Below the pieces are notes generated by a model that saw only the letters and a list, made by a program, of their open reading frames with translations, made no database searches and was not told the origin of the DNA. A program made the translations under genes and the position numbers. A stretch of 64,000 nt of DNA from a virus (lineage: Duplodnaviria; Caudoviricetes), in IMG/VR virus record IMGVR_UViG_3300042282_000085, one strand, 5' to 3'. Shown here piece after piece: positions 4,253 through 61,013 of the stretch (positions are counted from its first letter, which is position 1; the number at the start of each line of letters is the position of its first letter).

Positions 4253-5719
4253 ATCGCCATCGTAGTCAGCCCCAAGGCCGACTAACGCAAATGGACTTAC
4301 GATCGTAGTTGAGATAAACTCGCTTTTACCGACAGTGTTTGGAAACTCAGGGTACACCTGTCCTTCTGATTCCAACTCCCAACTTTCATTATAAGTGTGT
4401 AGAATGTGTGAGGTTACGGTAGAGCGCAAGTACACCGTAGAGGGATACGTAGAACCCTGACCTGTAACTGGGTATCGGGTAATGTAGCAGCGCACGCGAT
4501 GTACGTACTGCTGGGCCTCAATGTAGAAATACTCCGCCCAGGTTAGAGGACGTACTGTAGAGGCATCCTTATCCTCGGGTAACTCAGCGATTGAGTCCAA
4601 TAGCTTGAAGCCTTTCTCATCCTGATAGACGAGTTTAAGGTAATGGTCGCTTACCATAATGGGTCGATGACGGCGTTCGACCTCACTGAAGGCTTTAATT
4701 AGCTTAGCTCGACCGGCCTCTGTAGCCCAACTCACACGCTCCGACTCATCTAACTTCACCCGGTGAGAGGTAAGGGTTTTAGGGTCAATGAGGTAGGGCT
4801 CATAATCGGCCTCTGCAATCAGGTTCCGTGCAATGCCATTAGGCATTTGAAAGCCGGTCATAACCGGTTCGGTGCCTTTAATGAACTGATAGATTCCCAC
4901 CTGTGTCGTCGTCAGGTCAAAGCTACGCGGTCCGTCCAAATCTGAACCCGCTGGATCCATAGCCGAAATTACGTTGGCTGTAGCAAAGGCAACTCGACGA
5001 GATCCCCATTTAGACTGTAGGAAGCCCTGTTTACCACCTAACATCCCCATGATAATCGTCCAAATCTGCTGAACGGAGGATTGGATAGACCAGCGCGTCG
5101 CATTGAGCACGGGGTCGTTCTTAAAGGCGAGGGCTTCTGAAATTCCGTTGGTAGCGGCAATCACCTTACGGTAGAGTTTATTGATCTCCTGCTCAACCGG
5201 ACGATCTTGCTCATCAATGTCCAGATCCCGAAGGCCTGCAGGCATGACGATTAAAAAGTTAAGGACAGACCTGTCTCTGTACTTATTAATGAGGTCAATG
5301 ACGATATCACGACGATAGGACTTCGTGCGGGGAATCTCGATCTCTTTAAAGTGCTTCATGAAGAAGGCATAGCCAGTTTCACCTTCGAGTACGTCTGACC
5401 GTACGAAGTCTTTTAGCTCAGCGTCCCAGATCGCATAGGCACGGCCTTGCATAATGTCTTTATACAGGCTCTTTAACCGGGTGATGTCTTCAAAGACCTT
5501 AGGGTGGAGAACTTGAGTCCGTAAGTTAATATACCCATGGCGGGTCATACGGCTATCACTACCGACAGGGCCAAAGATTAGATCAGAGTAGAGTCCTGTA
5601 GGATGGAACTCTCGACCCTGCACAAACATCTCTAATGACTTAACGGGTAAGAGACCCGCAATGCGTTGGAGACGATTTTCTAGCAGGGCAATGTTGAAAG
5701 GTTTACTTCTATTGGACAT
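4253..5719 (-). CDS. rpoC: Exon 1 of virion RNAP beta' subunit (phiKZ gp180-like)
   Basis: beta' motifs GLYSDLIFG, MPAGLRD, GKQGFLQSKW, RYP and catalytic GADYDGD. The unspliced ORF (4241..5719) stops three codons after DYDGD. Confidence 0.92.
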
Positions 5720-5832
5720 ACGGAGGTCCCTATGTGAGGTGAATCAAATCATTCCCTAAGTCAATAAACCACTATAGTGGACAGCGGTTGAATCATCTGA
5801 CAAGTGGTCAGTGACCTAAAAGGAGGTACTCT

Positions 5833-8800
5833 ATGGCCAAGTATGACGATGATGTTGATTTTGACATCGATGCCTTGGACGATCTCGATGTACCTGACAT
5901 CGACATAATGCCAGACGACAGTGCGGCAGCAGATAACCGCACGCCCGCCACGCGTGTGGCGGACGGGGCACTCAAATCAGTATTACGTACCAGTACAGCC
6001 CGTACCGCAGCCCGTGCAATTAAAGAGAATGCACTGCCGGAAGGCTATAGCATGGCCATTGATGCCGCGGATGACGCGCTGTCCTTAGGCCAGGATCTAT
6101 ATGATGCGGCAGCCAAAGAACTTGAGCCTGCGGTCAAAGCGGCTCAGAAAATGCTCCGTAAAAGCCAGGAAAAGGCGGATAAATATCTACCTAAATGGCT
6201 GGCGGATACGGTTAAGAAGCTGGGTGGTGAGGCCGAAGAGGCGAGGCAGTACGTAGACCCCAATGAGTCTGCGATAGCCGGTAGCCTGGGCTCTATCTTT
6301 GATAAGTACCGTGAAGCGACTGCCCAGACAGCCGCAACAGAGGCTAACCTGACACTGGAAGATAAGCAGCGTTCTGTTGACCGTAAAATTGCGATTGAGC
6401 AGGGCGACCGTCAGTACAATCAGCTTACCTCTATCAGTGAAGGTATCAGTAAACTGGTAGGGTATCAAGAATCGGTACTCTTTGACTACCAACGTAAGAG
6501 TCTGGAACTGCAGCACCGTCAGTATTTCGCAGCCCGTGACCTGTTAACGGTTACAAAAGCGATGGCGGATCAGAACTTACACGAACTCAAAGCGGTGGTT
6601 AAGAACACCGGTCTACCCGAGGCGGTTAAGTTACGGCTCTCCGAGCAATACGGTCAGGTTGCGACCAATCAGCTCATTGGTCGGGTGCAAGGCAGTGTGC
6701 ATGACTTTGTTGCGAACTACACCTCTGAGTTTCGAGAACGTGCCTTCAAGAAGATTACAGGCGCAGCCCGTGATCTTAAAGATGGTGTCCTCATGGGTGC
6801 CGACATGTACGAACAGATGTCGGAGATGGGTGAGACCATGGATGAGGCAGGTATTGACCGTGCCCGGATGGCTGGCGAGCAGTTAGGTGCCATGGGTACG
6901 TCCGCAGCCTTTAAATATGGTGCTAGGTTAGCGGGTGACCGTCTCGTTACACGCAATAAGTACCAGGAGCGTAGTCGTCTAATAAAACTACTGGATCCCG
7001 ATAACCGACTCTCTTCTCGTGCGGCTAAAGCACTAGAGGCCCGCATTCAGCAATATGAGGCTTCCGGTGAGCCTTTGGATCTACAGGCTTTGACGGATAA
7101 AGAGAGTTATGAGGATAAGCGGGTCGGTGAAGAGATTGCGGAAACGATCAGCACCAGTTCAGGTCTCTTCGGTGGACGCAAACGTAAAATCAATGCGCAG
7201 TTTAAACGCGTACTGAATGCCAGTGAAACGGTAGAGCGTGGTCGCTTCCTACGGGGCGCTGACACCATGCAGTACTTGATAGAGAATGCCCCTAAGGTGG
7301 CAAACGACTGGGCCCGTTCGGGGCGCAGTGTATTCGATAACGTGGAGGTAGAGAATGAAACCCTACAGCGATTACTGGAATCTGGCGGCGTACAAGCCGT
7401 GGAAGACTTCATACGAGAACTGGCGCCTACGTTCAAGGAGTCCTTCAGCGTTAATTCAAACCTGCATGCTGATGCAGCTAATGCCGTTGGCTTTGATCTG
7501 CTTACCCGTCGTTCAATCATTGAGATTATACCAGGCTATCTCTCCCGTATCCTCCAACAAGTAACAACAGTTGCCACAGGGGAATCAGCGGAGCGGATTA
7601 CCTACTCAACTGAACGGGAACAGTTTGTCAGTCAATCGACTCAGGATAACATTGTTGCCAGCCGACTATTTGATCAGCGCAATGTAGATAACCGGTTAAA
7701 TGATGCAGATGCTGTTACGAAGTTGTTAGGGGGTGAAAACCTTGACGATGACGTTAAGGCCGCGCTGAATAGAAGAATCCTCCAGTTAAGGGATGATGGT
7801 AGTACACTCTCACTGAACAATTTGCGTAAAACTTCAGTGGCCGGTGAGGATGAAGGACTAACCGCAGCATTGGAAACGTTCTTAGACTCGGAGGATATTA
7901 ACTTCGACTCTGAGAATAAGATCAAGCTCTCCAGACTTTATGACCGTATTACCGCGATGACACGGGACGTTAACCAAGGACTGGCGGATACAAACAAGGT
8001 TGCGGATAAGGAGACGCTGTACCGCTTGGGTATAGTAGATCCCAAAACCGGTAAGGTTAATGCGGAGAAGGTTAGAGCCTACATCGACGGAAGACTTAGA
8101 CCAGGGGAAGGGGGAGAGGGGCCTGCACCGTCAGCCGACCCCAGTCCATTACCTGCACCAGGTCCAGATACAGCGCCTATAGTGGGTGACACGCTCACGC
8201 ACGAGTATTTGGATCTTATCCTAGACGCTATTACTAGCGGTAATAGTGGCACGCTAACGGCGATAGAGGGCATTCAGTTTGATGCAGCCGACATCGGTAC
8301 CCACGAGCGGTTAGATACAATAGCCAGTACACTCTCAGAGGGCTTTGAGGGTACCTATGGTAGGTTAGACGCTATTACTAATAAGGCGGGCGAGACCGGT
8401 ACCTTTAGTAACACGGTTAACTACAACACCACTAGTACAGTGAATTGGGATGACTTCACGCCACAGCGTAAATTGTTGGTGGAAGAATTGTTCAGTCAGT
8501 TCACCACGCTGACCTCAACCTATGACGGTATACCTATCGCTGTAGATTTGCGCTCTGAGGCACCCCAGGGTACATTGGACGCCTCACCTACTCATGAGCG
8601 TTTAGACGCCATCTTAGACGCCATCAATGGCAATTTTGAAACCAACCATGTACTCTTACAGGCCGTTGCTGAAAATGCAGGTCGTGGGGGTGAGGGTGGC
8701 GACACTGTATCGGTGGAAGAGATGGGGTCTGGGTTACTGGGCAAACTGCGCTCTGGTGCAGGTAGCTTAGTAGGGATGCTGGGTAGCTACTACAGTTGGT

Positions 8801-11800
8801 TAGGTCGTACGTCTTTGAAGACCGTCCAGACGGCTAAAGATGTTGCTTTGGACGTGGGGAATCGGGTACTGAAGCGTACAGGTGCAACCGGTGTACGGGA
8901 TATCTACGTTAAAGGGAAGCCGGGCGTTGTTATCTCCGCAAAAGGACTGCGTAACGGCTGGTACTTCGATGCTGAAACCAAAGCCCCCATCGCTACTATG
9001 GAGGACATTCAGGGCCCCGTGGTAGATCTGGATGGCAATTTTGTACTCACCCAGGAAGACTATGACTTAGGGATTGAGGACCGCTTCGGCAATACCTTAA
9101 TAGAAGCCGGTAAGGGATTGATGCGGGGACTGGGTAGCATTTACGGCGCACAGTTTGCACTTATGGGCGCTGTACTAAAGGCACCCATGGCTGTAGTGCA
9201 GAAGGTGAAGGATCGCTTCGACGGGGTTAAAGATGTCTATGTAAAGGGTGAAGGCACACCGCGTATGCGTGCACTGCTCATGCGCAATGGCGGCTACATC
9301 TCCAGTCGGAGTCAGAAAGTCATCACACACCAAGGGCAAATTGACGGCGAAGTCTTAGACTCTAAGGGGAACATCGTTATTTCCTTGGACGATATTGAGA
9401 CGGGACTCGTTGACCGGTGGGGCATTAGCATTGAGGCTAAGGGACTCAGTGGGTTACTGGGTGGCCTGGCGGGGCGTGGCCTTGAACTAGGCGGTAAATT
9501 GCTAGGGAAAGGCGCTAAGCTGTACGGTCAATACCTGAAGGGTGTCGGCAAAGCTACCGCCGGTATAGCGGGTGGTATCTGGGGTGTTGCTAAGGAAGGC
9601 GGTCGACGCCTAGCCGGTGGCGGTGGCATGTCGCGTGAAGAGATGATGGCGATGTTTCGGGAGATGCAAGGGGGCGGTGCCCCTGAGCTGGACCCCAGTG
9701 AACGTGAAACCTTGTCACTCTGGCAGAAGCTGAAGGATCAGAACCTTACCCCTGATATGTTAAAGTCCATGGATTTGGATGAACTTAAAGCCCGCATACC
9801 CGATCTAAACATGGATGCGTTAAACGTAGGATCCATGGAAGAGCTCACGGCTAAACTCTCTGAGGTAGGGGAGTCTGTCCGACAGGCACTGACCGGTAAC
9901 CAGATGGACATTGGTAGTCGTAAACTACTGCCGGTGTTGATTGAACAGTTAAACGTTCAACAGGGTATCTACCGCCATCTGACGGGCGAGAGTTGGTCTA
10001 GTTCCGGTACTGACATTATCCGAGACAGCTATGACGACATTCTCGCTAACGATGATAATGTTAGTGGTTTGAAGGATACAGTTGCTAAAGTCACCGATAA
10101 CTTCGCCCGTGAAGTCGGTAAGGAAGACGACGAAGAAGGTCACCGTGCAGGGAGCTGGCGAGATCAGCGATCTCAGTTAACCCCTGAAGAAGTCAAGGTT
10201 AAGGAAGAGGAAAAGAAAGAAGAGAAGGAAGAAAAGAACTCTTGGCTTATGGACATCATTGGTTCGCTCGGTGGACTGTTCATGAGCGGCATTGGTGCGC
10301 TGGGTGATAAACTCATGATAGCGATGGGCATTAAGTCCGCCGCCAGTACAGCCGGTGACGTACTGGACGGTGTAGATGCCTTAGGTAACGCCAGAGGTAC
10401 GCCTCCGGGGGGTAGGAAACCAGGTTTACTTGGTAAGTCTTGGAACCTACTAAAACGAGGGGCTAAGGGTGCAGGTGGGCTGCTTAAACGCGGTGCACTT
10501 GCGGCTGCGCCATTACTAGCGTCGTCTAAGGTGGGTGCTGCCGTACTCGCAGGTGGAGCTAAGCTTGCATCTGGTGCCGCTGCGATTGGCGGTGCCATTG
10601 CGGCAGCGCCTGTAGGATTGATTATTGGAGGTGCAGTCGCGGTAGGCGCTGCAGCCTATGGTGGGTATAAACTCTGGAGCCATTTCAGGGACAATGCCTC
10701 ACTAGAACCATTGGAAGCCTTGCGCTTCATGCAGTACGGCATTGACACAACTGATCAAGAGTTCATCGCACATGTCCGTCGTATTGAGCGTGAGTTCATT
10801 GACGACATCAGCTGGGAAGGGATGCGGGCTACCTTTAAAGGTGACCAAGTTGAATATTTCCATGAGTTCGGTGAAGACATGGGGATGGACCTCAACAACA
10901 TGAATGATGCTACGGAGTGGCAGACTTGGTTTGTGAAACGCTTTGGTCCTATACTCTTAACACACCTGACCGTCTTGAAAAAGATTGATGAGGATGTGGA
11001 TGTCACGGATGTAGACGATGAGTTGGACCCTAAGTACCATGCGGACTATATTAAGCGTGTTCAGATTACCGCTGACGATGTCGCCAATGGCTTCAATCCG
11101 TACGAGTGGGTAGCCTCACCCTTTAAAGGCCATGAAGTACGCAACATGGTTGAGGAGATCTCAGAGTACACCGAGGTGCTACTGAAGGCGGCTGAAGCGG
11201 GTAACGTGGAAGACGTGGAGGTTGACTCTAAAGGTACCTTCAGTACCTTAGTTGAAGGAGCTAAGAAAGTCTACGGTGCCGTTGCTAAGGTAGTACCTGG
11301 TGTTGCGTTGATGGGTAGGGTCGCCAGCGGTGTCCATAGTGCGGTCAGTACGGTTGCTGATACGGTACGTGAGAAAGGCGTACTCGGTGCCGCTAAGGCA
11401 GGTATTACTGCGGTGGCGGGATCCATACCGTTCATTGGGGGTTTCTTTAAAAAGGATGAAGAAGAGGAAACTCAAACTAGCGGTAAACTGGCACCAAATG
11501 CTAAGTGGACATTGTTGCGGATGATGATGTACGGTCTGGGTAAGGATGCCAACCCGGAGGCGATTAAAGCCGTTATGGCGTTGGAGCGTAAGTTAGGGAA
11601 AGACACTGCGTCTATACGCAGCAGTGGCGAGTTGAAGGTTGATCGGTTTAAGCTCTATAAGGAAGTCGCAGCGAGCTTTAACCGTGACCCGAAGGACCGG
11701 AATAGTCAGCTAGTATGGATACAGTGGTTAACCGATCGATTTGCCCCCGCCTTCACCCGTTATATCCATTCTCTACATGCCGCCACAGGTGATGATCGTC

Positions 11801-30249: not shown

Positions 30250-31187
30250 ACGGACACCTTCGCTTTAATAGCCGGATGCGGATTGTAATCTTCCAGAATA
30301 AAGTCTTCGTATTTATAATCGAAGATTGAATCGGGCTTACGGGCAAACCGCATCTTGGGTAAAGGTCTAGGGTCCCGACTAAGTTGCTCCTGTACAATGG
30401 TGGGGTCCTGGAGGTGGTCCTGGTACAGGTGTGTGTCACCGGTTACATGGATGTACTCGCCCAGCTCTAGGTCACACTGCTGTGCAATCATCATCGTCAA
30501 TAGTGCGTAGGAGGCGATATTAAACGGCGCGCCGAGTTGGCTATCACAGCTACGCTGCAGCATCATGCAGCTTAGTTTGCCATTCTGTACGTAGAACTGA
30601 AAAAACGTATGGCACGCCGGTAGGGCAGCCTTGCCATTACGGACATTGTCCTGAGGGGATATAGATTCATCAGGAAGGTCAGCCGGATTCCAAGCACTGA
30701 CAATAATGCGTCTGGAGTTAGGGTTCGTCTTCAACGTATCGATAACATTTTGAATCTGATTAATGGTACGTCTAACTACCGCTATCGGATGTCCAGTGAC
30801 CTCATCCAACACTAGGCCGTGGTACGTGTATCCCTGCTCAAGGTACCTGGCAATCCCCTCAGGGCGAATCATTTTGGTATCGTCCCAGCTCACCCACTGC
30901 TTGGAGTAGATTGGTCCTAGGCGACCATCCTCCAGTGCCCATTCATCCCAAATGCGTACACCGTTCTCTTTCAGGGTATTGTTGTTGGTATCGCCGGAGA
31001 GGAACCATAAGAGTTCATGGATAATGGATTTAAGGTGAACCTTTTTGGTGGTAAGCAGTGGGAAACCTGCGCTCAGGTCAAAGCGTAGCATGCGACCAAA
31101 GACCGAGCGCGTACCTGTACCTGTACGGTCGCCCTTATCAATGCCGTTGTCCAAGATATCTTGGAGCAGATTTAGATATTGCTGCAT
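30246..31187 (-). CDS. thyA: Thymidylate synthase
   Basis: [38 protein letters not shown] and PFNIASY. Confidence 0.97.
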
Positions 31188-31834: not shown

Positions 31835-32041
31835 TTAAACTGGCTGTCCGTCGAGTACTTCCTGCTCATTGTAGACAGGTAGGCAATATCGACATTTCTT
31901 GGTTAGGCTATATGCCCAGGTTTTACCGCCATCTATTGTACATTTGTATCCGTAAACGGAGCGGGTACCTGTGCCTGTACGGTCACCCTTATCGGTGCCA
32001 TTTTCGATAACGTCGGCGGGTAGATCTGGATACTGTTGCAT
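31835..32041 (-). pseudogene. Truncated thyA-like 5' fragment fused to unrelated sequence
   Basis: First 31 aa ([31 protein letters not shown]) align with the ThyA N-terminus, then similarity ends. Confidence 0.7.
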
Positions 32042-33128: not shown

Positions 33129-33395
33129 CTATTCGTTAGTGGGGTTAAGGGTATCGTACCACTCAGCACGAGCACCCTCTATAAAGTCCGGATGAATAGG
33201 AAATGCATCCGCCCGATGGATGCCCTCTGGGTTATCAGGAGAGGTAGACCGATCTACCTTTACAACTGCATAGCCAAGATCACTCCACCAGATATCGGTG
33301 ACTGTTATCGCGTCTCCGGCCTGGATATCATGACTATCCTTACCAGCAATCATTGTGACGGGGGGTAAAAGTTTCATAGTGGTATCCTCATTCAA
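33129..33395 (-). CDS. Hypothetical protein
   Basis: About 82-88 aa; likely ATG at 33377 with GAGG RBS. Confidence 0.55.
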   Translation of the reverse strand: MNEDTTMKLLPPVTMIAGKDSHDIQAGDAITVTDIWWSDLGYAVVKVDRSTSPDNPEGIHRADAFPIHPDFIEGARAEWYDTLNPTNE

Positions 33396-33404
33396 AATGG
33401 ATAG

Positions 33405-33440
33405 CCCTCCCTACCCTAGCCTAGGCTAGGGTAGGGAGGG
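33405..33440. repeat. Perfect 36-bp palindrome
   Basis: CCCTCCCTACCCTAGCCT|AGGCTAGGGTAGGGAGGG, intergenic. Confidence 0.9.
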
Positions 33441-33559: not shown

Positions 33560-34768
33560 TTAGTAAAGTCCCTCACTATAGAGTTCATTGCCCGACCCAC
33601 CATTGCGTTTAAAGTCAACGGGCTGACCAGCAGCTAGCGCCACCAGCAACGCCTCATGGCGATCCATGTACGTTTCCCATTGATCAATGAAGCCTTGTTC
33701 CCACTTACGATCATCCACGTAACCTAATTTAAGGTAGGCCTCTGCTTGAACGTGCATAGTGGGACAGAAGTGACGTGGGCCGACCAACATATAGTCACCG
33801 TTTCTACAGGCAGCACATACGACCTTACGCAGAGGCACTTCGGAAACAGACGCCTGTAGCGGTGCTGCGTACAGAACCACCTTAGCGGTCTTACGGTCCC
33901 GAACTCCCATCAGAAGCACAGGGTAGGGTAGGTCCTCCAAGGGCGATTCTTTACCACCAACCAATACAGGGGTGCGCTCTACTGGATAGCCTTTATCCAC
34001 CGTGTGACTATCCAAATTACAGTGGATGTGGTCCAATAGACCGATGGCTACTTTAAGGTTTACCACCGAGTAAATTCCCTTAACAACCTCTGTATGCGGT
34101 GTGTCATGCTGCACTGACCGCAGCTCATCCGGCAAGTCGCGATCATGCGGATCCAGCTCCATGAAACGCTGAAGCGCAGCCTTCAACTGATCCCGCTCTT
34201 GTTCTGCTTCAAAAAGGCGCTTAATTGATACAAGGTGCGTATCTGAAGCTACAACTTCACGCAATCGCTCCACCTCAGCCTGCAGCGGTGCCATGAGTGC
34301 CTCTGCAAACTCATACACATACGGGTTTAGGTCTTCGGATCCATGCGGCTGGGTTTTCAGTTTGAAGCCATTGGCCAGGACAAGTTCCTTGACCTGTTCA
34401 CGCTGCACCGTCTTTTCTCCTCTCCGGAAAGGCACTACCCAGCGACTGTAGCTCTTGGAGTAGTTGTACCAATTCCCATCGCCAAAGCACAGGCCCCAGG
34501 CGTTGTAGGAATTGTTCTCGGTAGAGGACCAGGCGTATTCAATAGACTGCACAGATGCTACAGTTCGGGCGTCGTAAAGTGCATCTAAGATCATCCTATC
34601 GGGCAATTCATACCCAAGCCCATGACAGTATGCCACACCCTCATGCCAATCACACTCTCTCCACAGTGACTGAGGGGCTACGGCCCAATACTCCGTATCC
34701 GTGATATGGAAAACAGTATCTCCGTTATCCAGCACTGCGCCAACCTCAATTGCATTGCTACTAGTCAT
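33560..34768 (-). CDS. Mosaic protein: N-terminal CLec-like DGR-target domain fused to unrelated phage modules
   Basis: Residues ~1-117 (GAVLDNGD..WAVAPQS..YC.GLGYELP..YAWSSTE..AW..WVVPFRR) are homologous to the C-terminal domains of 57902 and 59906; the remainder is unrelated. Confidence 0.75.
   Translation of the reverse strand: MTSSNAIEVGAVLDNGDTVFHITDTEYWAVAPQSLWRECDWHEGVAYCHGLGYELPDRMILDALYDARTVASVQSIEYAWSSTENNSYNAWGLCFGDGNWYNYSKSYSRWVVPFRRGEKTVQREQVKELVLANGFKLKTQPHGSEDLNPYVYEFAEALMAPLQAEVERLREVVASDTHLVSIKRLFEAEQERDQLKAALQRFMELDPHDRDLPDELRSVQHDTPHTEVVKGIYSVVNLKVAIGLLDHIHCNLDSHTVDKGYPVERTPVLVGGKESPLEDLPYPVLLMGVRDRKTAKVVLYAAPLQASVSEVPLRKVVCAACRNGDYMLVGPRHFCPTMHVQAEAYLKLGYVDDRKWEQGFIDQWETYMDRHEALLVALAAGQPVDFKRNGGSGNELYSEGLY
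34421..34537 (-). repeat. DGR-type variable repeat copy 3 (VR3)
   Basis: 117 bp, ungapped match to VR1/VR2 with differences only at codon positions 1/2. Confidence 0.85.
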
Positions 34769-34770
34769 AG

Positions 34771-35019
34771 TTAAGTCCTTCGTTTACCCATCGGTATAAT
34801 TGACCACCAACCTACCTTCACTACCATCGTAATCATCGTCACCTCAGCGATTACCATAATGAAGGAAAAGTAAAAGGCGGCTTTGTATTTGCCGCCCACT
34901 ACATTCTGGCTTTGAAACCCACGTATAAAGACATAGGTGAAAGTGGATAAAAGTTGAATGAGATAAGACATCACGCCCATCCTACTGTATAAGTGACACC
35001 GCTCTAAATTCTTGCGCAA
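34771..35019 (-). CDS. Small membrane protein, possibly truncated
   Basis: Two hydrophobic segments; ends abruptly IIPMGKRRT two nt before the next start. Confidence 0.5.
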   Translation of the reverse strand: MRKNLERCHLYSRMGVMSYLIQLLSTFTYVFIRGFQSQNVVGGKYKAAFYFSFIMVIAEVTMITMVVKVGWWSIIPMGKRRT

Positions 35020-36284: not shown

Positions 36285-36298
36285 GTAATATAGGTTTT
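36285..36298 (-). promoter_or_regulatory. phiKZ-type early promoter (AAAACCTATATTAC)
   Basis: Identical over AAGGTAATATAGGTTTT (+ strand) to the 19809 site; drives the operon containing VR3. Confidence 0.72.
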
Positions 36299-36414
36299 CG
36301 TTAATCTAGAATAGTTAATCTAAAGAAAAAAAAAGAGGAGTATCCTCTTTTAGTGCTGGAGCCAGGCCTCCAGCTTCGCAATGTCACCCTGGTCTTTATT
36401 CCGTAGGCACGCTG

Positions 36415-40984: not shown

Positions 40985-41539
40985 TTACCATTCATACCAT
41001 GATTCCATGGAAGGTAGGTCTTTTATAACGTTTACCGGCCACGGTAGCCACCCGTAGGGCTCCTTACCAGAACGGTCGTCAAAGGCGTAATAGTACAGCT
41101 TGTCGCTAGACTTTGGCACTTCAATTTCTACACGGCCCAGATATTCCATATATGTTGGATCTATGATCCCATGTTCTTCAGTAATATGCGCGTCATGAAT
41201 GGCTCTTTGTTCGGTGAATGCCTTCGGCAGTATAATGCGTTCCCGTCCAGTAAACCTTGGCTTATACACGGCAAACGTCATCTTAGATCGCCCTCTTCCA
41301 CCAAATAGATGTTTAACATTGGCGTAGATAGCTTGAAAGCATTGCTCGATGGTCGGCGACACAGATATTTTAGCGATTACTGTTTCAGTAACCAAATCAA
41401 CGTTTTCCTCCGTGTAGTCGCCATCTGGCTCTACAGGCGTCCACCTTCCTTCAGGATCATGGTTAGTGCGACTGTGGTAGAGGTCAGGTAGGTTTCTATT
41501 TACACGTATCGCCAGGCGTATTAAATCCTCACCGTTCAT
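40985..41539 (-). CDS. Hypothetical protein with C-terminal PSMESWYEW
   Basis: 184 aa; ISVSPTIEQCF and HDAHITEEH motifs. Confidence 0.6.
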   Translation of the reverse strand: MNGEDLIRLAIRVNRNLPDLYHSRTNHDPEGRWTPVEPDGDYTEENVDLVTETVIAKISVSPTIEQCFQAIYANVKHLFGGRGRSKMTFAVYKPRFTGRERIILPKAFTEQRAIHDAHITEEHGIIDPTYMEYLGRVEIEVPKSSDKLYYYAFDDRSGKEPYGWLPWPVNVIKDLPSMESWYEW

Positions 41540-43306: not shown

Positions 43307-45363
43307 TTGGTAGAGTTTGAGTGTACAGCAGGTTCAATGGGCGGTAACGCTGCAACCAGATCAACGATACCTTCCATTGAGGGCTCAGATAGTGTATCGG
43401 TCCCATCGTATTCTACCTTAAATGGCGATTCCATTTTCATAATCGCCTCAATCTGATCCTGAGACCATTGTAGAATATCGAGGTTACGGCTACTGATGTT
43501 ACTTTCTTCACCTGTATCCAGAATTGCCGTATACACGTACGTTTGGGTATCCGACCCCAGTCGATGAATACGAGATACTGCCTGCTGCAATACGTAGTCA
43601 CGGAACGGCATGTTGATCAGGATCATGGTATCAGCCATCACCAAAGGCACCGCCGTTGAGAGACTATCGTAGGTGGCAATCAGTGGATTAAGCTCCGGAT
43701 TACCCTCAAAGCGCCGTACAGTGTCCGCTAAGACCTTTGTGTTCTTTCCATAGACCGTAACCGGTTTTAACTTAAGGCTCTCCAGATGGCGGTGTGTGGC
43801 CTCTAGTGCCTCTACGTAACTTGTGAAGACCACGGTCTTTTTCGTGGTCGTACCCATGACGCCCTCAAAGTCGATATGTTTAACCATGTCGACATGGGCA
43901 TTAATACGTTCACGCCCTAAGACACGCCCCAAGCACTCACCCTGCACCTTAAGCTTTAAATACTTAACAACAGTCTTGGCCTCTTTAAAGGCTTTACGTA
44001 ACTCTGGATCGGCAATGCGCGGCATAATGACATTACGCTCGTAGAGATTGGTTTCTTTAATCTCTTCGGTCACTGACTGCAAACGTCCTCGGTTATGTGC
44101 ATCGATTACAGTCGCCACTAACCGACGGTAGCGCTTAAATGCTTTCTCGGCCTCCAACCACTCTTTAGTGTCATCGGTTTCGCCTTCCCAACAAGCACTG
44201 GCCTTAATGCCCCGGTCATAGATATCCTGATACTCAGCCTTATGCTTTAGGTAGTACCCCACACGCTCTTCGATAAACCGCTGCATCTTAATACTGATCG
44301 CGGTCAATGTATAGTCCTTCGCATTCGGTATTTTCACCACCAGGTTTCGAAAGATCGGGGGCTCTAGCTTAAGTTCCGCCTTCTCTACCTTAAAGGACAT
44401 AACACCTAAGCGCTCGGCCAGTATAGAAGTAGCTTTGTTGGCGTCCCCTGCAAAGATGCGTTTGAACCGATCCATGACCACATCGGTAAATTGAGGGTCA
44501 ATGGCTTTAAAGACCGAGATGGTTTCTAAGGTACTGGCCTTTATAGGGGTACCGGATGCTAGCACTACGTCTTGGGTATCAATGCGGTTACAGAAGTCTA
44601 TAAACCGCTGGGTGCGCTGCGAAGTCATCTCAGCCATGTTGTGGGACTCATCGAGAATCACCAAGGTCTTACGCTTCTCTAGGTACCGTACTTCAGAGAA
44701 GGCCTCTTTGAGGGCTTCATAGTGGTAGATAAGGATCTTCTCCTTATTGTATCGTTGACCACTACTATAGTACCAATAGCTAGGGGTCTTCTTGTAAACA
44801 CTTTCGATATTAGCAGTCCATACCCGCTCAACCGCATTCTTAGGACAGATAATGATGATGTTGTCGGCCTCTAGGCATTCGCCCAAGGCAAGGCCTGTAA
44901 AGGTCTTACCGGAGCCGGCAGTAGCGGAGAGCAGCATACCCCGTAATCCGTACTGGGGTACGACCTGAGAATAGGTCTCTAAGAACCGCTGCTGAAAATC
45001 CAACGGTGTCCATTTCAGGTTATTAAGCTGACGGAAGTTAAGGCGCTCAGGCATTACGATCTGGGTATTCGCTAACCAAGTATTGGCCAGTAACCCTTCC
45101 TTTATATGGTGCAGTGCTCGTACACTGGTGCCCACCGTACGGGACTTAGAGAGCTTATCGACAATGTGGTAAAACTCCAGCGCAAAGAAGCTTTCAATTA
45201 CAACACTGCCTCTGGAGACATCAGAGAAGATGTATTTAGAGACACGGGAGGTATTGAACATCCGCTTAATATCCCCTTCCATGGTGCGGGTGTGGATGTT
45301 CTTAATGTAGATACGGTTATCCCGCTCCTCCACCTTAGGTTTACCTAGAATAAAATACGACAT
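43291..45363 (-). CDS. SNF2-like / DExH-box helicase (phiKZ gp203-like)
   Basis: ATAGSGKT Walker A, ILDESH, ASGTP and QAVSRIHRLG helicase motifs. Confidence 0.88.
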   Translation of the reverse strand: MSYFILGKPKVEERDNRIYIKNIHTRTMEGDIKRMFNTSRVSKYIFSDVSRGSVVIESFFALEFYHIVDKLSKSRTVGTSVRALHHIKEGLLANTWLANTQIVMPERLNFRQLNNLKWTPLDFQQRFLETYSQVVPQYGLRGMLLSATAGSGKTFTGLALGECLEADNIIIICPKNAVERVWTANIESVYKKTPSYWYYSSGQRYNKEKILIYHYEALKEAFSEVRYLEKRKTLVILDESHNMAEMTSQRTQRFIDFCNRIDTQDVVLASGTPIKASTLETISVFKAIDPQFTDVVMDRFKRIFAGDANKATSILAERLGVMSFKVEKAELKLEPPIFRNLVVKIPNAKDYTLTAISIKMQRFIEERVGYYLKHKAEYQDIYDRGIKASACWEGETDDTKEWLEAEKAFKRYRRLVATVIDAHNRGRLQSVTEEIKETNLYERNVIMPRIADPELRKAFKEAKTVVKYLKLKVQGECLGRVLGRERINAHVDMVKHIDFEGVMGTTTKKTVVFTSYVEALEATHRHLESLKLKPVTVYGKNTKVLADTVRRFEGNPELNPLIATYDSLSTAVPLVMADTMILINMPFRDYVLQQAVSRIHRLGSDTQTYVYTAILDTGEESNISSRNLDILQWSQDQIEAIMKMESPFKVEYDGTDTLSEPSMEGIVDLVAALPPIEPAVHSNSTKWMEW

Positions 45364-55304: not shown

Positions 55305-56033
55305 ATGAGACGTTCCCATGGTTTTAGCTTCCTACCGGGTGCGCGGGCGAGGAATTTCAGAGTAGATCGGTATCCGGTCTCACCCGAAGACCTTCTAGAA
55401 GAAGGACGCGTGTGGTATGGAGAAGATGACGACACCCTGCGGTACAGTAAAACAGAAAGTGGCCTATTGGTTCCACGCCGAGTGTTAGATTCTGAACCCA
55501 AGTGGGCGGACTTAACCGCACCGATTAATCCCGACAGTGGGGTAGGGGTTAGTACCCCAAGCTGGGAAGCATTTAGGGGTGACTTTTCGGCAATGCTGTT
55601 TTTGTCAAATAAGAGTCAATCGGTTCAGGTGGCCTTCCACATTAACCACGACTATGCACTGGGTACCGAGATCTTCCCTCATGTCCATTGGACCAATAAG
55701 GTACCTGGTGAAACAGGTACAGTGCGGTGGGGGGTTGACCTGCTAGTGGCGCAGGGTCACCAACAAGATAACTTCAATGGTGTGATTGACACGATCTACA
55801 TCGAGCAAGCTGGGGTAGGGGGTACCTTGGACCATATGGTGGCCGAGTCTACGGTAGGATTCTATGACCCGCGACTGGAACCCGATACATTGGTGTATTG
55901 TCGAATATTCAGAGACTCCGGTCACCCGAACGATACCGCCGGTAACGTGTACGGGCTTACGATAGATGTACACTATCAGCTCGATGACGTGGGTACTCCA
56001 TCTAAGTCGCCTGACTTTTACGCGCGTAATTAA
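55305..56033 (+). CDS. Putative tail-associated protein
   Basis: N-terminus (HGFSF...NFRVDR...GRVWY...LRYS) is paralogous to that of 51663..53159; beta-rich C-terminal domain. Confidence 0.55.
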   Translation: MRRSHGFSFLPGARARNFRVDRYPVSPEDLLEEGRVWYGEDDDTLRYSKTESGLLVPRRVLDSEPKWADLTAPINPDSGVGVSTPSWEAFRGDFSAMLFLSNKSQSVQVAFHINHDYALGTEIFPHVHWTNKVPGETGTVRWGVDLLVAQGHQQDNFNGVIDTIYIEQAGVGGTLDHMVAESTVGFYDPRLEPDTLVYCRIFRDSGHPNDTAGNVYGLTIDVHYQLDDVGTPSKSPDFYARN

Positions 56034-57901: not shown

Positions 57902-58972
57902 ATGGCCTTAAAACAAATGAGCGGTGTGGTTACGTGGAAGCGCTTTACCACGAACAGCATCGAAACGTACTTGGGTAAGCCGGGTGAACCGATTGTCGAC
58001 ATGCGCACTGGTGAGCCGGCAATTCGTTTATGTGATGGATTGACACCGATGGGTCACCCAATTGGGGTTATTCCAACGTTGACTGGTGTGGCACGCCCTA
58101 TCATTATTAGCCCGGTTAATAATGCTACAGATGTCGATACCTCACCGGTGATTACTGCCAGTCAATTTAACGGCATTAACGGCGACGGCAGTATCCCAAC
58201 ACATGCGGCGACTATCTGGAACATTGCAACGGATGCCGCCTTTACCCAGATGACGTATAATAGTGGTGAAACGGCACTGAATAAAACGACACTGGATCTT
58301 TCCAGTGTAGGAGTAACACTGGAGCAAGGTAGTGTTTACTATATACGCGTAGCGTATAAGAGTGACAGTGGTGTGGTGTCCGACTGGAGTGCTACCGTTA
58401 AGATTACGACCAGTACTATGGGAATTGGCACAGTACTACCGGACGGTGGTATCGTTTTCGGTCAGGAAGGGGGCGACTGGCTGGTAGTAGCCCCGGCTTC
58501 ACAGCGTACGACTAAAATGTGGGGACTCTACGGTACCGATACCAGTCTTCCAAACTGGACGAGTGGCAGTGGGACTACTACTACCCCTACTGACCCTAAC
58601 TCATCAGAGTACAATACTGACGTACTGACGAGTCCTACTTATAACTCCATTAACGATGGACAGGGTAGTATCGGCTCACCCGCTGCAGAGTACTGCCGTA
58701 GTCTAGGGTACGACTTACCCAATGCGAGGGATCTGCAGCTTATTTACAATAATCGAGCTCAGATCGATGCAGCGGACTCTAGTGGAGGCGGTGCCACACT
58801 CTCCGCTATTCAATCTGGCACTGCACCCGGCTCCTCCACGACGTACGTCTGGTCCTCTACCGAGTACGGTTCCAACTTCGCCTGGTACCTGCTCTTTGGC
58901 AATGGGAATTGGTACAACATCAACAAGAACGTCAGTATCTGGGTAGTGCCTTTCCGGAGAATACCCGTTTAA
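57902..58972 (+). CDS. Mtd-like receptor-binding protein, DGR target 1
   Basis: Mtd-like N-terminus (WKR...YLGKPGEPIVD...LCDGLTPMG), Ig/FN3-like middle (YYIRVAY...SDWS) and C-terminal CLec-like domain ending YVWSSTE...AW...WVVPFRRIPV. Confidence 0.85.
   Translation: MALKQMSGVVTWKRFTTNSIETYLGKPGEPIVDMRTGEPAIRLCDGLTPMGHPIGVIPTLTGVARPIIISPVNNATDVDTSPVITASQFNGINGDGSIPTHAATIWNIATDAAFTQMTYNSGETALNKTTLDLSSVGVTLEQGSVYYIRVAYKSDSGVVSDWSATVKITTSTMGIGTVLPDGGIVFGQEGGDWLVVAPASQRTTKMWGLYGTDTSLPNWTSGSGTTTTPTDPNSSEYNTDVLTSPTYNSINDGQGSIGSPAAEYCRSLGYDLPNARDLQLIYNNRAQIDAADSSGGGATLSAIQSGTAPGSSTTYVWSSTEYGSNFAWYLLFGNGNWYNINKNVSIWVVPFRRIPV
58844..58960 (+). repeat. DGR-type variable repeat copy 1 (VR1)
   Basis: 17 differences to VR2 in 117 bp, none at a third codon position. 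Confidence 0.88.
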
Positions 58973-58982
58973 ACGGGTATTC
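58959..58982. other. Perfect 24-bp palindrome abutting VR1 (candidate DGR target hairpin)
   Basis: GAATACCCGTTT|AAACGGGTATTC. Confidence 0.7.
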
Positions 58983-59032
58983 ACTTTTAATACCGAGTCA
59001 CAGTGAGTGTCCTTTAAAGGACACTGCTTTTA

Positions 59033-59121
59033 GGGCTTGCCCTTTGTAGGGCTGCCCTTACTACCCTTACTCCATTTAAAAGCCCTACAGGCCACCCAGG
59101 CCCTTTGTAGGGACTGGGTCC
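59033..59121 (+). repeat. 89-bp structured non-coding repeat, copy A
   Basis: Matches 60925-61013 apart from a 10-nt central block and 2 substitutions; two CCCT-TTGT-AGGG stem-loops. Confidence 0.88.
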
Positions 59122-59158
59122 AAATTTACAATACTTCTTTCATAAAAGGATTATTCCA

Positions 59159-59839
59159 ATGAAATGTGAAATCATTCGTAATGGCAACACCATCGTTTCT
59201 GAGATGGACTTTAACGTAAACCGTGTACGTGACATTGTTGCCCGTCAGGGTGGCGATTACCGCCTCGTACCCAATGCTCTAACTGCTGCCATCCATATTG
59301 GCTCTATTCAGATCCTCCCAGTTAAATACGATATGCCAGTTACTACTCAGGCCCAGCGCTGCGGTAAGCCGGTACGTACCGTATCAGACTCACTGGTTAC
59401 CTACTCTTACCCGGTTGAAGAGAAAACCGAAGACGAGCTTCGCAATGAGCTTCTTACCCAGGTGTCCCGTATTCATGAAAGTTATGACAGCGGTCGTATG
59501 GAGTATCAGGGCGTCTCAATTGCGGTAGACCTGGAGGCCCGTGTCAATGCAGAAGGCGTACTCAAGCGTTTTGAGCGTGGTCTGATGTCGGCTACTCAGT
59601 GGAATGGTCAGGCGGTAACCTCAACCGATGAGAACGGTAATGAGGTCACTGGTCCTTCTAAGGTGGCCATTGGCTCTACCGCTGATATGCAGGCGCTGTA
59701 TGATGCAGTCTTTGCACACCTCGAAGCCGGTTTCATAGCTAAAGAAATGCTCAAAGCGGAGCTCGAATCTGCTGATGCCGTTACATTGGCGACTGTAGAC
59801 GTTAATGCGCGTTGGAATGAGATTGTAGAGACACTCTAA
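59159..59839 (+). CDS. Tail-fibre assembly/chaperone-like protein (DUF4376-like)
   Basis: MKCEII...DLEARVNA...QWNG...MQALYD; paralog of 54636..55292. Confidence 0.55.
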   Translation: MKCEIIRNGNTIVSEMDFNVNRVRDIVARQGGDYRLVPNALTAAIHIGSIQILPVKYDMPVTTQAQRCGKPVRTVSDSLVTYSYPVEEKTEDELRNELLTQVSRIHESYDSGRMEYQGVSIAVDLEARVNAEGVLKRFERGLMSATQWNGQAVTSTDENGNEVTGPSKVAIGSTADMQALYDAVFAHLEAGFIAKEMLKAELESADAVTLATVDVNARWNEIVETL

Positions 59840-59905
59840 GGTGTAACTAGTGATTAGGGGGTGGGTGCCCACCCCCTTTGTATACGGTTTATAGGAGCAT
59901 GTAAG

Positions 59906-60892
59906 ATGCCAGATTTACAATTGAAACGCGGTACACCGGCTCAGGTAGATGCCTATCAGGGGCCAGCGGGTGAAATCGTAGTCGATAGCCAGAACTGGAA
60001 TATGCGGCTACAGGACGGTGTTACAGCTGGTGGTGTATTACTAGGCAGTAACGAGAACCTGATTGCACGCCCTGAGATTTTGAGTCCCATTCAGGGTAGT
60101 GTCATTGGGGACCAGAGCCCTATTCTGGTTAGTACCGCGTATAGTGGGGAAGGGGTCCACAGTGCGAGTCAGTGGCAGATCAGTGGAGAGGTTGGGTTTG
60201 TAAACCTTATCCACGATAGCGGACGCAATACAGTTAGTCTATTGAGCTATAACTTACTGGATGCAGGTGTAACCTTGACCCGTGGGGTAACGCTGTACGT
60301 ACGGGTGCGTCACGAATCCGGTACTGCAGGCTGGAGTGAATGGAGTGAAGCACTAAGCTTCAGTGTACAGGCAATGGAGCCGGGTACTGTACTGGATGAC
60401 GGTGGCATTATATTTGCACAGGATGGTAATGATTGGCTCGTTGTAGCGCCTGCTAGTCTGCGTGCACTGAGAACCTGGAACGATGGGTCTACTAGTTGGG
60501 TAGACACCCCACTCCCTAACTATACTTCTAATCCAGAGCAAGACGTTAACGATGGTACTTACAATACGGATGTACTGGTTAACGTGACGCAGGAGCAGAA
60601 GGCCGCTACCTACTGCCGTTCTATCGGCTATGATTTGCCGAATGCGGCAGAGCTTCGTTTAATTTACAATAATCGAGCTCAGATCGATGCAGCAGATACC
60701 AGCGGAGGCGGGGCCACACTCTCCGCTATCCAATCCGGCACTGCACCCGGCTCCACCACGGCGTACGTCTGGTCCTCTACCGAGTACAATTCCTTCGTCG
60801 CCTGGGCCCTGTACTTTGGCAATGGGAATTGGTACGCCAGCATCAAGCACAACAGTGTCTGGGTAGTGCCTTTCCGGAGAATCCCAGTCTAA
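59906..60892 (+). CDS. Mtd-like receptor-binding protein, DGR target 2
   Basis: ATG 59906 with AGGAG RBS. LQLKRGT...YQGPAGEIVVD...LQDGVTAGG Mtd-like N-terminus; same architecture as 57902. Confidence 0.87.
   Translation: MPDLQLKRGTPAQVDAYQGPAGEIVVDSQNWNMRLQDGVTAGGVLLGSNENLIARPEILSPIQGSVIGDQSPILVSTAYSGEGVHSASQWQISGEVGFVNLIHDSGRNTVSLLSYNLLDAGVTLTRGVTLYVRVRHESGTAGWSEWSEALSFSVQAMEPGTVLDDGGIIFAQDGNDWLVVAPASLRALRTWNDGSTSWVDTPLPNYTSNPEQDVNDGTYNTDVLVNVTQEQKAATYCRSIGYDLPNAAELRLIYNNRAQIDAADTSGGGATLSAIQSGTAPGSTTAYVWSSTEYNSFVAWALYFGNGNWYASIKHNSVWVVPFRRIPV
60764..60880 (+). repeat. DGR-type variable repeat copy 2 (VR2)
   Basis: 117-bp ungapped homolog of VR1 and VR3. Confidence 0.88.
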
Positions 60893-60917
60893 TCGCCTTA
60901 AGGCGATGACTGGGATT
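60880..60917. other. Hairpin abutting VR2 (candidate DGR target hairpin)
   Basis: AATCCCAGTC-ta-ATCGCCTT|AAGGCGAT-GACTGGGATT. Confidence 0.7.
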
Positions 60918-60924
60918 TGCCTTT

Positions 60925-61013
60925 GGGCTTGCCCTTTGTAGGGCTGCCCTTACTACTTTGAGTACTTTTAAAAGCCGTACAGGCTACCCAGGCCCTTTGT
61001 AGGGACTGGGTCC
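60925..61013 (+). repeat. 89-bp structured non-coding repeat, copy B
   Basis: See copy A at 59033-59121. Confidence 0.88.

What the first reader, a model, noticed from the sequence alone, without database searches (positions are those of the whole stretch)
33560..34768. Remote third DGR target with an internal VR in an early-operon mosaic gene
Seen: 24 kb from the tail targets, on the opposite strand, a 402-aa ORF starts with a compact version of the same domain. Its VR encodes residues 78-116, after which the frame continues for ~285 aa into unrelated modules. Outside the VR the DNA has diverged from the tail genes, yet the VR third positions are identical, implying recent overwriting from the same template. 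The operon is headed by a TATATTAC early-promoter motif (36285). Established: most DGR VRs are C-terminal, and AAY mutagenesis cannot create stop codons, so an internal VR is tolerable. Inference: an intracellular early protein with a hypervariable binding domain, e.g. for host takeover or anti-defence, would be a new use of a phage DGR. The upstream membrane ORF ends abruptly 2 nt before the start, compatible with insertion of this module.
Basis: partly seen in the sequence, partly recalled or inferred. Interest (0 to 1): 0.88.

Follow-up and report, generated by a model that had tools for sequence, protein, structure and literature searches.

The report
Rarely rewritten DGR repeat, early phage gene
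A giant phage's early, apparently non-virion gene carries a repeat that the phage's diversity-generating retroelement (DGR) has clearly written, at the front of a patchwork protein, but this copy lacks the DNA hairpin of the tail-fibre copies and stays fixed in samples where those vary.

Summary
ORF 33560-34768(-) encodes 402 aa. Codons 78-116 are a third copy of the 117-nt repeat that ends the two tail-fibre genes. All 25 variable columns are at codon positions 1-2. From template position 9 to 120, every mismatch to the template repeat (TR) of a sister phage falls on a TR adenine, and the flanks are unrelated. The domain has a C-type-lectin (Lcl_C-like) fold.

The fusion is real. It is identical in at least 11 assemblies, and orthologues exist in other lineages. 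The gene is a three-part mosaic: lectin-VR domain, a neighbour's 124-aa gene, then a T4_Y16D domain.

On one 43-kb contig VR1 and VR2 each differ from the window at 17 TR-adenine sites and VR3 at none. VR3 has one allele in 12 contigs. VR3 and all early-region VRs lack the hairpin that abuts every tail or cis VR. Between lineages, however, orthologous internal VRs differ at A sites (22/41 shared, flanks 92-95% identical), so this target class is rewritten, but rarely.

Function is unknown. Read-level data could not be obtained.

The parts
33560..34768 (-). 402-aa ORF: lectin-VR domain, coiled-coil module, then T4_Y16D-containing domain
   Evidence: Open frame. Residues 59-402, the part JGI called, are identical in at least 11 independent assemblies. 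Orthologues P0002-P0008 exist in other lineages. AF2 model pLDDT 83.7.
34406..34768 (-). N-terminal C-type-lectin (Lcl_C-like) domain, aa 1-121
   Evidence: Foldseek best hit is 8q4e, Legionella Lcl C-terminal domain (E 3e-6, TM 0.75), followed by Bd2740 and many C-type lectins. dN/dS is 0.11-0.35 over codons 7-68, so the start at 34768 is real and the JGI call at M59 is too short.
34421..34537 (-). VR3, the variable repeat (aa 78-116); the tract matching the TR without a non-A mismatch is 34421-34532
   Evidence: Against the sister phage's TR there are no non-A mismatches from TR position 9 to 120 and 15 mismatches at TR adenines. No third-position variation.
34095..34423 (-). Middle module (aa ~117-224), derived from a separate 124-aa gene; includes the former RBS GGAGAGGAGA and the former start codon, now GTG V121 (34406-34408)
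   Evidence: About 90% DNA identity to L038:1-385, where it is a stand-alone gene (P0181) directly upstream of the 316-aa orthologue. PHROG 5217. Predicted as long helices.
33563..34108 (-). C-terminal alpha/beta domain (aa 221-402); the T4_Y16D core is aa ~309-402 (33563-33844)
   Evidence: PHROG 839 at E 4e-27. Precomputed Pfam PF26092 T4_Y16D. 806 homologues, mostly stand-alone proteins of 90-190 aa. Atlas TM 0.80 to a T4_Y16D cluster. No PDB fold match.
34361..34420 (-). 3' flank of VR3: no VR-adjacent hairpin
   Evidence: DNA fold z-score -0.97, against -2.5 and -6.5 for the VR1 and VR2 flanks.
34771..35019 (-). Upstream 82-aa membrane ORF (holin-like PHROG 7045) ending 2 nt before the 402-aa start
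36285..36296 (-). Promoter-like motif AACCTATATTAC heading the five-gene unit
   Evidence: The 10-nt core CCTATATTAC has four exact copies, all on the minus strand and intergenic. It resembles the phiKZ (TATATTAC) and EL (AAACCTACATTAT) promoter consensus in PMC7058600 Table 2.
36331..36351 (-). Terminator-like hairpin closing the ligase unit just upstream of the promoter motif
33399..33416 (-). Terminator-like hairpin downstream of the 402-aa ORF
   Evidence: weak consensus match
58841..58980 (+). VR1 (58841-58960) at the C-terminus of the 356-aa tail target, plus the abutting hairpin ATACCCGT-TTAA-ACGGGTAT (58961-58980)
   Evidence: All 18 positions that vary between samples sit on TR adenines.
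60761..60916 (+). VR2 (60761-60880) at the C-terminus of the 343/328-aa Mtd_N-type tail target, plus the abutting 36-nt hairpin (60881-60916)
   Evidence: All 25 positions that vary between samples sit on TR adenines.

Best explanation
The 402-aa gene belongs to a five-gene, probably early, unit of a phiKZ-like jumbo phage. Its product looks cytoplasmic and non-virion, and it has three parts. (1) An N-terminal C-type-lectin domain of the Lcl_C type, whose ligand-binding strands are encoded by a true DGR variable repeat. (2) A helical coiled-coil module, captured from a neighbouring 124-aa gene. (3) A C-terminal domain ending in the phage-specific T4_Y16D module, of unknown activity. VR3 has been written from the phage's single template repeat, acting in trans. 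It is a poor target because it lacks the hairpin that directly follows every tail-fibre and cis VR. As a result it is rewritten only occasionally. It is fixed in the sampled population, while orthologues in other lineages differ at template-adenine sites. Shown here: the repeat, the adenine signature, the fold, the mosaic origin, the missing hairpin, the stasis within the population and the variation between lineages. Inferred: early expression, intracellular location, the idea that the lectin domain aims the Y16D domain at a host or phage ligand, and the idea that the missing hairpin causes the low rate.
For: The TR of sister phage G001 (target, bAvd-like gene, TR, RT) is identical but for 1 nt to the TR of a second lineage, so it is a fair proxy for the window's own TR. 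VR3 has 0 non-A and 15 A-site mismatches over TR positions 9-120. The adjacent N-domain codons have dS 0.8-1.2 between lineages, and the flanks are random with respect to the tail genes. Orthologous internal VRs in L030, L032 and L017 have 15-18 A-site and only 2-4 non-A mismatches, and each pattern is different. Between L030 and L032 the flanks are 92-95% identical and VR non-A sites agree at 74/79, but VR A sites agree at only 22/41. The lectin fold is supported. Fusions of the same N-domain to Y16D occur in eight other proteins, once in tandem, and to other C-termini in P0009 and P0010. The Y16D-containing C-terminal domain also exists on its own (P0032, P0033). Stasis: P0001, which includes VR3, is exact in 12 contigs and alone in its 90% cluster. 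Contig Ga0451655_000886 shows 17 changes in VR1, 17 in VR2 and 0 in VR3. Hairpins abut all five tail or cis VRs examined and none of the eight early-region VRs. Guo et al. 2011 (PMC3240598) showed that such a hairpin is needed for efficient retrohoming. The neighbours are a ligase, thymidylate synthase, DHFR and RNase H. Promoter motif and flanking terminator-like hairpins.
Against: No read-level data could be obtained. Rare VR3 variants, or their complete absence, therefore remain untested, and purifying selection on one allele could produce the same stasis. The window's own TR and RT lie outside the window and its assembly is not held. Early timing rests only on a promoter motif; the bare 8-mer is not enriched (4 found against 2.7 expected), and phiKZ_IP (internal head protein family) genes lie nearby. 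No function is known for T4_Y16D and no fold match was found. The fusion placed a good RBS and a GTG in frame at codon 121, so a shorter product without the lectin domain may be the main one.
Confidence: 0.55

Rival explanations
1. Fossil VR. The lectin domain was once a DGR target (or a copy of one), but the locus is no longer hit. In the window's lineage the 3' cis region was replaced when the neighbour gene was fused in exactly at the VR end. The sequence is now maintained only by ordinary selection on a fixed binding specificity.
For: There is one VR3 allele in 12 contigs, against at least 4 alleles each for VR1 and VR2. There is no hairpin. The fusion junction coincides with the TR 3' boundary. 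Paralogues in G001 show graded decay, with 4-22 non-A mismatches and degenerate 3' ends.
Against: The window's VR3 is the freshest of all internal VRs, with no non-A change in 112 nt, whereas neighbouring synonymous sites are saturated between lineages. Hairpin-less orthologous VRs have nevertheless been rewritten independently in several lineages.
Confidence: 0.25
2. VR3 is refreshed not by cDNA homing but by gene conversion from the actively diversified tail VRs (or from TR DNA). Homology is limited to the repeat, so conversion tracts would have the same boundaries.
For: Homology between VR3 and VR1/VR2 is confined to the repeat. A non-A variant (TG to CA at TR positions 57-58) is shared by tail and early VRs of several lineages although neither TR carries it.
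Against: No VR3 pattern equals a known VR1 or VR2 allele. Perfect-identity runs between the copies are short. The adenine-only signature relative to the TR is complete.
Confidence: 0.1
3. Full-rate target under strong purifying selection. VR3 is mutagenised as often as VR1 and VR2, but only one allele is viable because the ligand is invariant.
For: Assemblies show only the consensus. Roux et al. 2021 (PMC8144416) report steadier change in viral structural targets than in non-structural ones and leave open whether control or selection is the cause.
Against: The cis hairpin needed for efficient homing is missing (PMC3240598). No variant fragment exists in a collection of 15 billion proteins.
Confidence: 0.07
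4. Artefact. The read-through fusion is an assembly or sequencing error, or the gene really starts at M59 as in the JGI call, so that no lectin domain is made.
For: The JGI gene call starts at M59.
Against: The DNA is identical in at least 8 separately assembled samples. Orthologous fusions are called full-length in other lineages. dN/dS is 0.11-0.35 across the codons upstream of M59. The lectin fold needs residues 1-58, which have pLDDT around 90. AAGGA lies 7 nt before the ATG at 34768.
Confidence: 0.02

Closest known systems
Bordetella phage BPP-1 DGR (Mtd, TR, Avd, bRT) and its target-site rules (Guo et al. 2011, PMC3240598)
   Same: Adenine-specific TR-to-VR transfer. C-type-lectin-fold target domain. 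VR ending in a conserved 3' block. For VR1, VR2 and the cis VR, a hairpin with a 4-nt loop lies immediately downstream. One tail target has an Mtd_N domain.
   Different: VR3 is internal, far from the cassette (about 70 kb from the TR at the orthologous sites of the sister phage), on the opposite strand to the tail VRs, without the hairpin, and in a gene that looks non-structural.
Tentaclins (Baykov et al. 2023, PMC10743442)
   Same: A phage DGR second target with an N-terminal C-lectin domain, so the VR is internal and followed by other domains.
   Different: Tentaclins continue with Ig-like domains and are proposed virion adhesins. Here the partners are a coiled coil and T4_Y16D, in an early DNA-metabolism operon. 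No Ig domain was found.
Legionella Lcl C-terminal domain / Pfam Lcl_C (PF07603, formerly DUF1566) and the Bdellovibrio Bd2740 fibre tip
   Same: Best structural matches of aa 1-120 (8q4e TM 0.75; 8oks TM 0.68). The tail targets hit Lcl_C weakly.
   Different: In those proteins the domain is the C-terminal tip of an extracellular trimeric fibre. Here it is N-terminal and has no signal peptide. The 402-aa protein itself gives no Pfam hit.
Cytoplasmic DGR targets of multicellular bacteria (Dore et al. 2024, PMC10907252)
   Same: A diversified lectin-fold domain fused to intracellular effector or signalling modules. VRs served by the same DGR locus differ in activity.
   Different: Those are cellular defence sensors with C-terminal VRs. 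This is a phage gene with an N-terminal VR domain.
Phage T4 Y16D (arn.3) family, PF26092 / PHROG 839
   Same: The C-terminal ~90 aa are 42-53% identical to stand-alone proteins of T4-like, T5-like and Aeromonas phages.
   Different: Those proteins are small and stand alone. Only this jumbo-phage clade carries the lectin-VR domain in front.

Membership tests
DGR variable repeat (target site) | TR/VR pair whose mismatches fall on TR adenines | tested here: met
   Against the TRs of two sister lineages, 15 of 15 mismatches over TR positions 9-120 are at adenines. Three non-A differences lie in the first 8 nt. The window's own TR is outside the window.
DGR variable repeat (target site) | A DGR-type RT, an accessory protein (Avd) and a TR in the same genome | not testable with these tools
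   The window's assembly is not held. The sister phage G001 has target, bAvd-like gene, TR and RT. An unchecked first-stage note places a full cassette 34.6 kb before the window. VR1 and VR2 vary between near-clonal contigs only at A sites, which shows an active DGR in this population.
DGR variable repeat (target site) | VR at the C-terminus with the cis elements (IMH region plus hairpin/cruciform) just downstream | tested here: not met
   The VR covers aa 78-116 of 402. The flank folds no better than shuffles (z -0.97) and there is no abutting inverted repeat. The conserved 3' block TGGGTAGTGCCTTTCCGGAGA is present.
DGR variable repeat (target site) | Variability at the VR in populations or between close relatives | tested here: inconclusive
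   Within the sampled population there are 0 changes in 12 contigs, while VR1 and VR2 change. Between lineages, A sites agree at 22/41 against 92-95% identity in the flanks. Reads were not obtainable.
DGR variable repeat (target site) | VR encoded within a C-type-lectin fold | tested here: met
   AF2 model with Foldseek: 8q4e at E 3e-6, followed by many C-type-lectin domains.
Pfam Lcl_C (PF07603) | Score above the gathering threshold (34.9 bits) | tested here: not met
   The 402-aa protein gives no hit at E<=0.1. The tail targets score 21-27 bits. The resemblance is structural only.
Pfam T4_Y16D (PF26092) | Sequence match to the family | tested here: inconclusive
   The local Pfam scan gave no hit. 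However, the collection's precomputed Pfam label is PF26092, PHROG 839 matches at E 4e-27, and the atlas gives TM 0.80 to a cluster that is 97% T4_Y16D.
Tentaclins | N-terminal C-lectin domain followed by Ig-like domains, with a consensus C-terminal Ig domain | tested here: not met
   The N-terminal lectin domain is present, but the rest is helical plus an alpha/beta domain, and there is no Ig domain hit.
phiKZ-like early promoter | TATATTAC-type motif upstream of early genes, with experimentally early transcription | tested here: inconclusive
   The motif and its position fit (PMC7058600 Table 2). Timing cannot be tested here.

The most novel reading that the evidence does not exclude
A nucleus-forming jumbo phage uses its DGR not only on tail fibres but also, at a lower rate, to re-aim the lectin-type targeting domain of intracellular early proteins. 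These include a T4_Y16D effector here and up to six paralogues in a sister phage. That would be a phage-side, antibody-like system for host takeover or counter-defence. It would also show that retrohoming can work on internal VRs without the canonical hairpin.
Probability: 0.25. Interest if true: 0.85.

Novelty: new variant of a known kind. Interest (0 to 1): 0.6.

Why it matters
Phage DGR targets are almost always virion receptor-binding proteins with C-terminal VRs. The usual explanation is that the cis elements must lie outside coding sequence (PMC8144416). This clade places DGR-written lectin domains at the N-terminus of non-structural-looking early proteins. It also offers a natural comparison within one genome: hairpin-bearing VRs that turn over within a near-clonal population, against hairpin-less VRs that turn over only between lineages. 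That comparison makes two questions testable. How much does the hairpin set the homing rate in vivo? Can a phage diversify an intracellular effector's specificity? The practical value is limited until the ligand and the T4_Y16D activity are known.

Tried and rejected
- Own genome: not held. JGI contigs behind the loci could not be searched as records.
- Megablast of the locus against isolate phages found nothing. The phage is distant from cultured phages (ligase about 36% identical to Serratia jumbo phages).
- A further paralogue of the N-domain in the window: none found by tblastn.
- C-terminal domain function: no PDB sequence hit. Foldseek gave E>=0.8. VIA-align gave Z<=4.0, a weak hot-dog-like match covering only aa 221-306. 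None of these is evidence of a new fold.
- VR3-variant fragments on short contigs: none among proteins of 30-220 aa.
- Bare TATATTAC enrichment: 4 found against 2.7 expected, not significant. Only the extended motif and its placement are informative.
- A hairpin 24 nt downstream of VR3 (CAGGTCAAG-GAA-CTTGTCCTG) is no better than shuffles and lies in the captured gene.
- Assembly artefact and the M59 start were rejected.
- The compost-phage paper (PMC13220884) and the jumbo-phage review (PMC7824862) contain nothing on this system.

Full report
**1.

- ORF 33560-34768(-) is open for 402 codons.
- A repeat search finds the 117-nt segment 34421-34537(-) again at 58844-58960 and 60764-60880, at 82-84% identity. 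The two invariant blocks occur exactly three times in the window, against 0 to 0.15 expected.
- The segment encodes residues 78-116, and 286 residues follow.
- Of the 117 columns 25 vary: 13 at codon position 1, 12 at position 2, none at position 3.
- Outside the repeat, VR3's flanks are 45-49% identical to the tail genes, no better than shuffled DNA.

**2. It is a DGR variable repeat**

- The window holds no template and no RT, and its own assembly is not held.
- The nearest record, a 195.5-kb IMG/VR contig (G001), carries a canonical cassette. It consists of a 431-aa Lcl_C-type target, a bAvd-like gene, a non-coding TR at 176555-176676 and an RVT_1 reverse transcriptase.
- A second lineage (L036) has the same TR but for one base. 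The TR is therefore very stable in this clade and can stand in for the window's own.
- Against this TR:
  - VR1 has 15 adenine-site mismatches out of 16.
  - VR2 has 19 out of 20.
  - VR3 has 17 out of 21. Its non-adenine differences all lie in the first 8 nt or beyond the 3' end, so from TR position 9 to 120 there are 15 adenine-site changes and no other change.
- Neighbouring codons of the same domain have dS of 0.8-1.2 between lineages. VR3 was therefore overwritten from the template long after the domain diverged.

**3. The gene is real and is a mosaic**

- Residues 59-402, the part JGI called as a gene, are encoded identically in at least 11 contigs from a JGI sample series. The DNA is 99.85-100% identical over 4-16 kb.
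- The codons upstream of M59 are under purifying selection (dN/dS 0.11-0.35). They are needed for the fold, so the ATG at 34768 is the start.
- The AlphaFold model has mean pLDDT 83.7.
  - Residues 1-120 form a C-type-lectin fold. The best PDB match is the Legionella Lcl C-terminal domain (8q4e, E 3e-6, TM 0.75), then Bdellovibrio Bd2740 and many C-type-lectin domains.
  - Residues about 123-217 are long helices.
  - Residues 221-402 form a confident alpha/beta domain. Its last ~90 residues belong to the phage family T4_Y16D (PHROG 839 at E 4e-27; precomputed PF26092; atlas TM 0.80). No solved fold or function could be attached to it.
- Eight orthologues of about 315 aa (one of them 440 aa, with two tandem lectin-VR domains) have the lectin domain joined directly to the Y16D domain. 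P0009 and P0010 join the same lectin domain to other C-termini. P0032 and P0033 are the C-terminal domain on its own.
- The window's middle module is about 90% identical in DNA to a separate 124-aa gene. In relative L038 that gene lies immediately upstream of the 316-aa orthologue.
- Homology with L038 begins at that gene's ribosome-binding site. The window's V121 (GTG) is its former start codon, and the junction coincides with the 3' end of the VR.
The documented seam is at the VR's 3' end, not at the membrane ORF.

**4. Context**

- The unit runs from a terminator-like hairpin (36351-36331) and the motif AACCTATATTAC (36296-36285) through five ORFs to 33560.
- The 10-nt core CCTATATTAC occurs four times in the window, always on the minus strand, always intergenic, and 29-55 nt before a start codon. 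It resembles the published phiKZ and EL promoter consensus (PMC7058600, Table 2).
- The neighbours are an NAD ligase, thymidylate synthase, DHFR and RNase H. phiKZ_IP genes (internal head protein family) are also nearby.
- Early, non-virion expression is thus plausible but inferred.

**5. Is VR3 being diversified now?**

Two lines of evidence say not in the sampled population.

- *Stasis in assemblies.*
  - The protein that includes VR3 is exact in 12 contigs and is the only member of its 90% cluster.
  - The VR1 and VR2 proteins each have seven variants that differ almost only in the VR.
  - One 43-kb contig (Ga0451655_000886) carries all three repeats. Compared with the window it has 17 changes in VR1, 17 in VR2 and none in VR3.
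  - Every position that varies between samples (18 in VR1, 25 in VR2) sits on a TR adenine. The DGR is therefore active in this population.
- *Missing hairpin.*
  - Each tail or cis VR in both phages is followed at once by a perfect hairpin with a 4-nt loop (z -2.5 and -6.5).
  - VR3 and every early-region VR examined lack it (VR3 flank z -0.97).
  - Such a hairpin is required for efficient retrohoming in BPP-1 (PMC3240598). The usual C-terminal position of VRs is attributed to this need (PMC8144416).

**6. The target class does turn over between lineages**

- Orthologous internal VRs in L030, L032 and L017 share an identical hairpin-less 3' flank. Each has 15-18 adenine-site and only 2-4 other mismatches to the TR, and each pattern is different.
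- Between L030 and L032 the flanks are 92-95% identical and VR non-adenine sites agree at 74/79, but adenine sites agree at only 22/41.
- In G001 the syntenic region holds six lectin-domain paralogues with 4-22 non-adenine mismatches, a graded series from fresh to decayed.

**7. Verdict**

- The best reading (confidence about 0.55) is a genuine but inefficient trans target: rewritten rarely, fixed in this population, and located in a probably early, non-virion modular protein. Its lectin domain would provide an adjustable binding specificity for the T4_Y16D module.
- Rivals:
  - a fossil VR (0.25);
  - refreshment by gene conversion from the tail VRs (0.10);
  - full-rate mutagenesis hidden by selection (0.07);
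  - an artefact (0.02, rejected).
- An internal N-terminal lectin VR has precedent in tentaclins (PMC10743442). Intracellular DGR targets, and VRs within one DGR locus that differ in activity, have precedent in multicellular bacteria (PMC10907252).
- I found no description of a phage DGR repeat in an early T4_Y16D-type gene, nor of a hairpin-linked hierarchy within one phage. The finding is a new variant of a known kind.
- Read-level data, expression timing and the ligand are the missing pieces.

Noticed in passing
L010 (G001:100000-112000) 4659-9515: The sister phage has six lectin-domain paralogues (152, 161, 315, 214, 189 and 134 aa) in the region syntenic to the window's single gene. The 189- and 214-aa ORFs are near copies of the tail-fibre tip domain. 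Non-adenine decay ranges from 4 to 22 mismatches.
   Followed up: partly
window 57902-60892 vs P0021/P0026 (contig of 199512 bp): The two tail target proteins of the G001-like lineage are identical to the window's outside the VR, although the early region is only 70-77% identical. This points to a recent exchange of the tail module between lineages.
   Followed up: no
window 41445-41480, 44491-44578, 55835-56013: There are tight clusters of substitutions (7 in 36 nt, 10 in 88 nt, 5 in 179 nt) between otherwise near-identical contigs. They are not related to the TR. One contig (L023) ends at the first cluster. They may be recombination patches or another variable locus.
   Followed up: partly
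window 33367-33434: A 68-nt stretch downstream of the 402-aa ORF is absent from three of the eight contigs (L019, L022, L026). This changes the start of the next small gene (74 versus 82 aa in JGI calls).
   Followed up: no
TR positions 57-58 (window equivalents 34483-34484; G001 and L032 VRs): A non-adenine variant (TTTGGC to TTCAGC, Gly to Ser) is shared by several early VRs and one hairpin-bearing tail VR in different lineages, although neither known TR carries it. This hints at an older TR allele or at exchange among VRs.
   Followed up: no
window 34406-34430: The fusion left GGAGAGGAGA 7 nt before an in-frame GTG (codon 121), the former RBS and start of the captured gene. A 282-aa product lacking the lectin domain could therefore also be made.
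   Followed up: partly
window 59030-59121 and 60922-61013: A 92-nt element (90% identical) with paired stem-loops follows both tail targets, beyond the VR-adjacent hairpins (repeat family D2).
   Followed up: no
window 31102-31187 and 31956-32041: An 86-nt direct repeat (74% identical) duplicates the 5' end of the thymidylate synthase gene as a 68-aa ORF, with a 160-aa ORF between the copies. This may be the footprint of an inserted element.
   Followed up: no
L032 3507-4829 (P0002): A close relative with the same gene order has two tandem lectin-VR domains before the Y16D domain. The first is decayed (8 internal non-A mismatches) and the second is fresh (2).
   Followed up: partly
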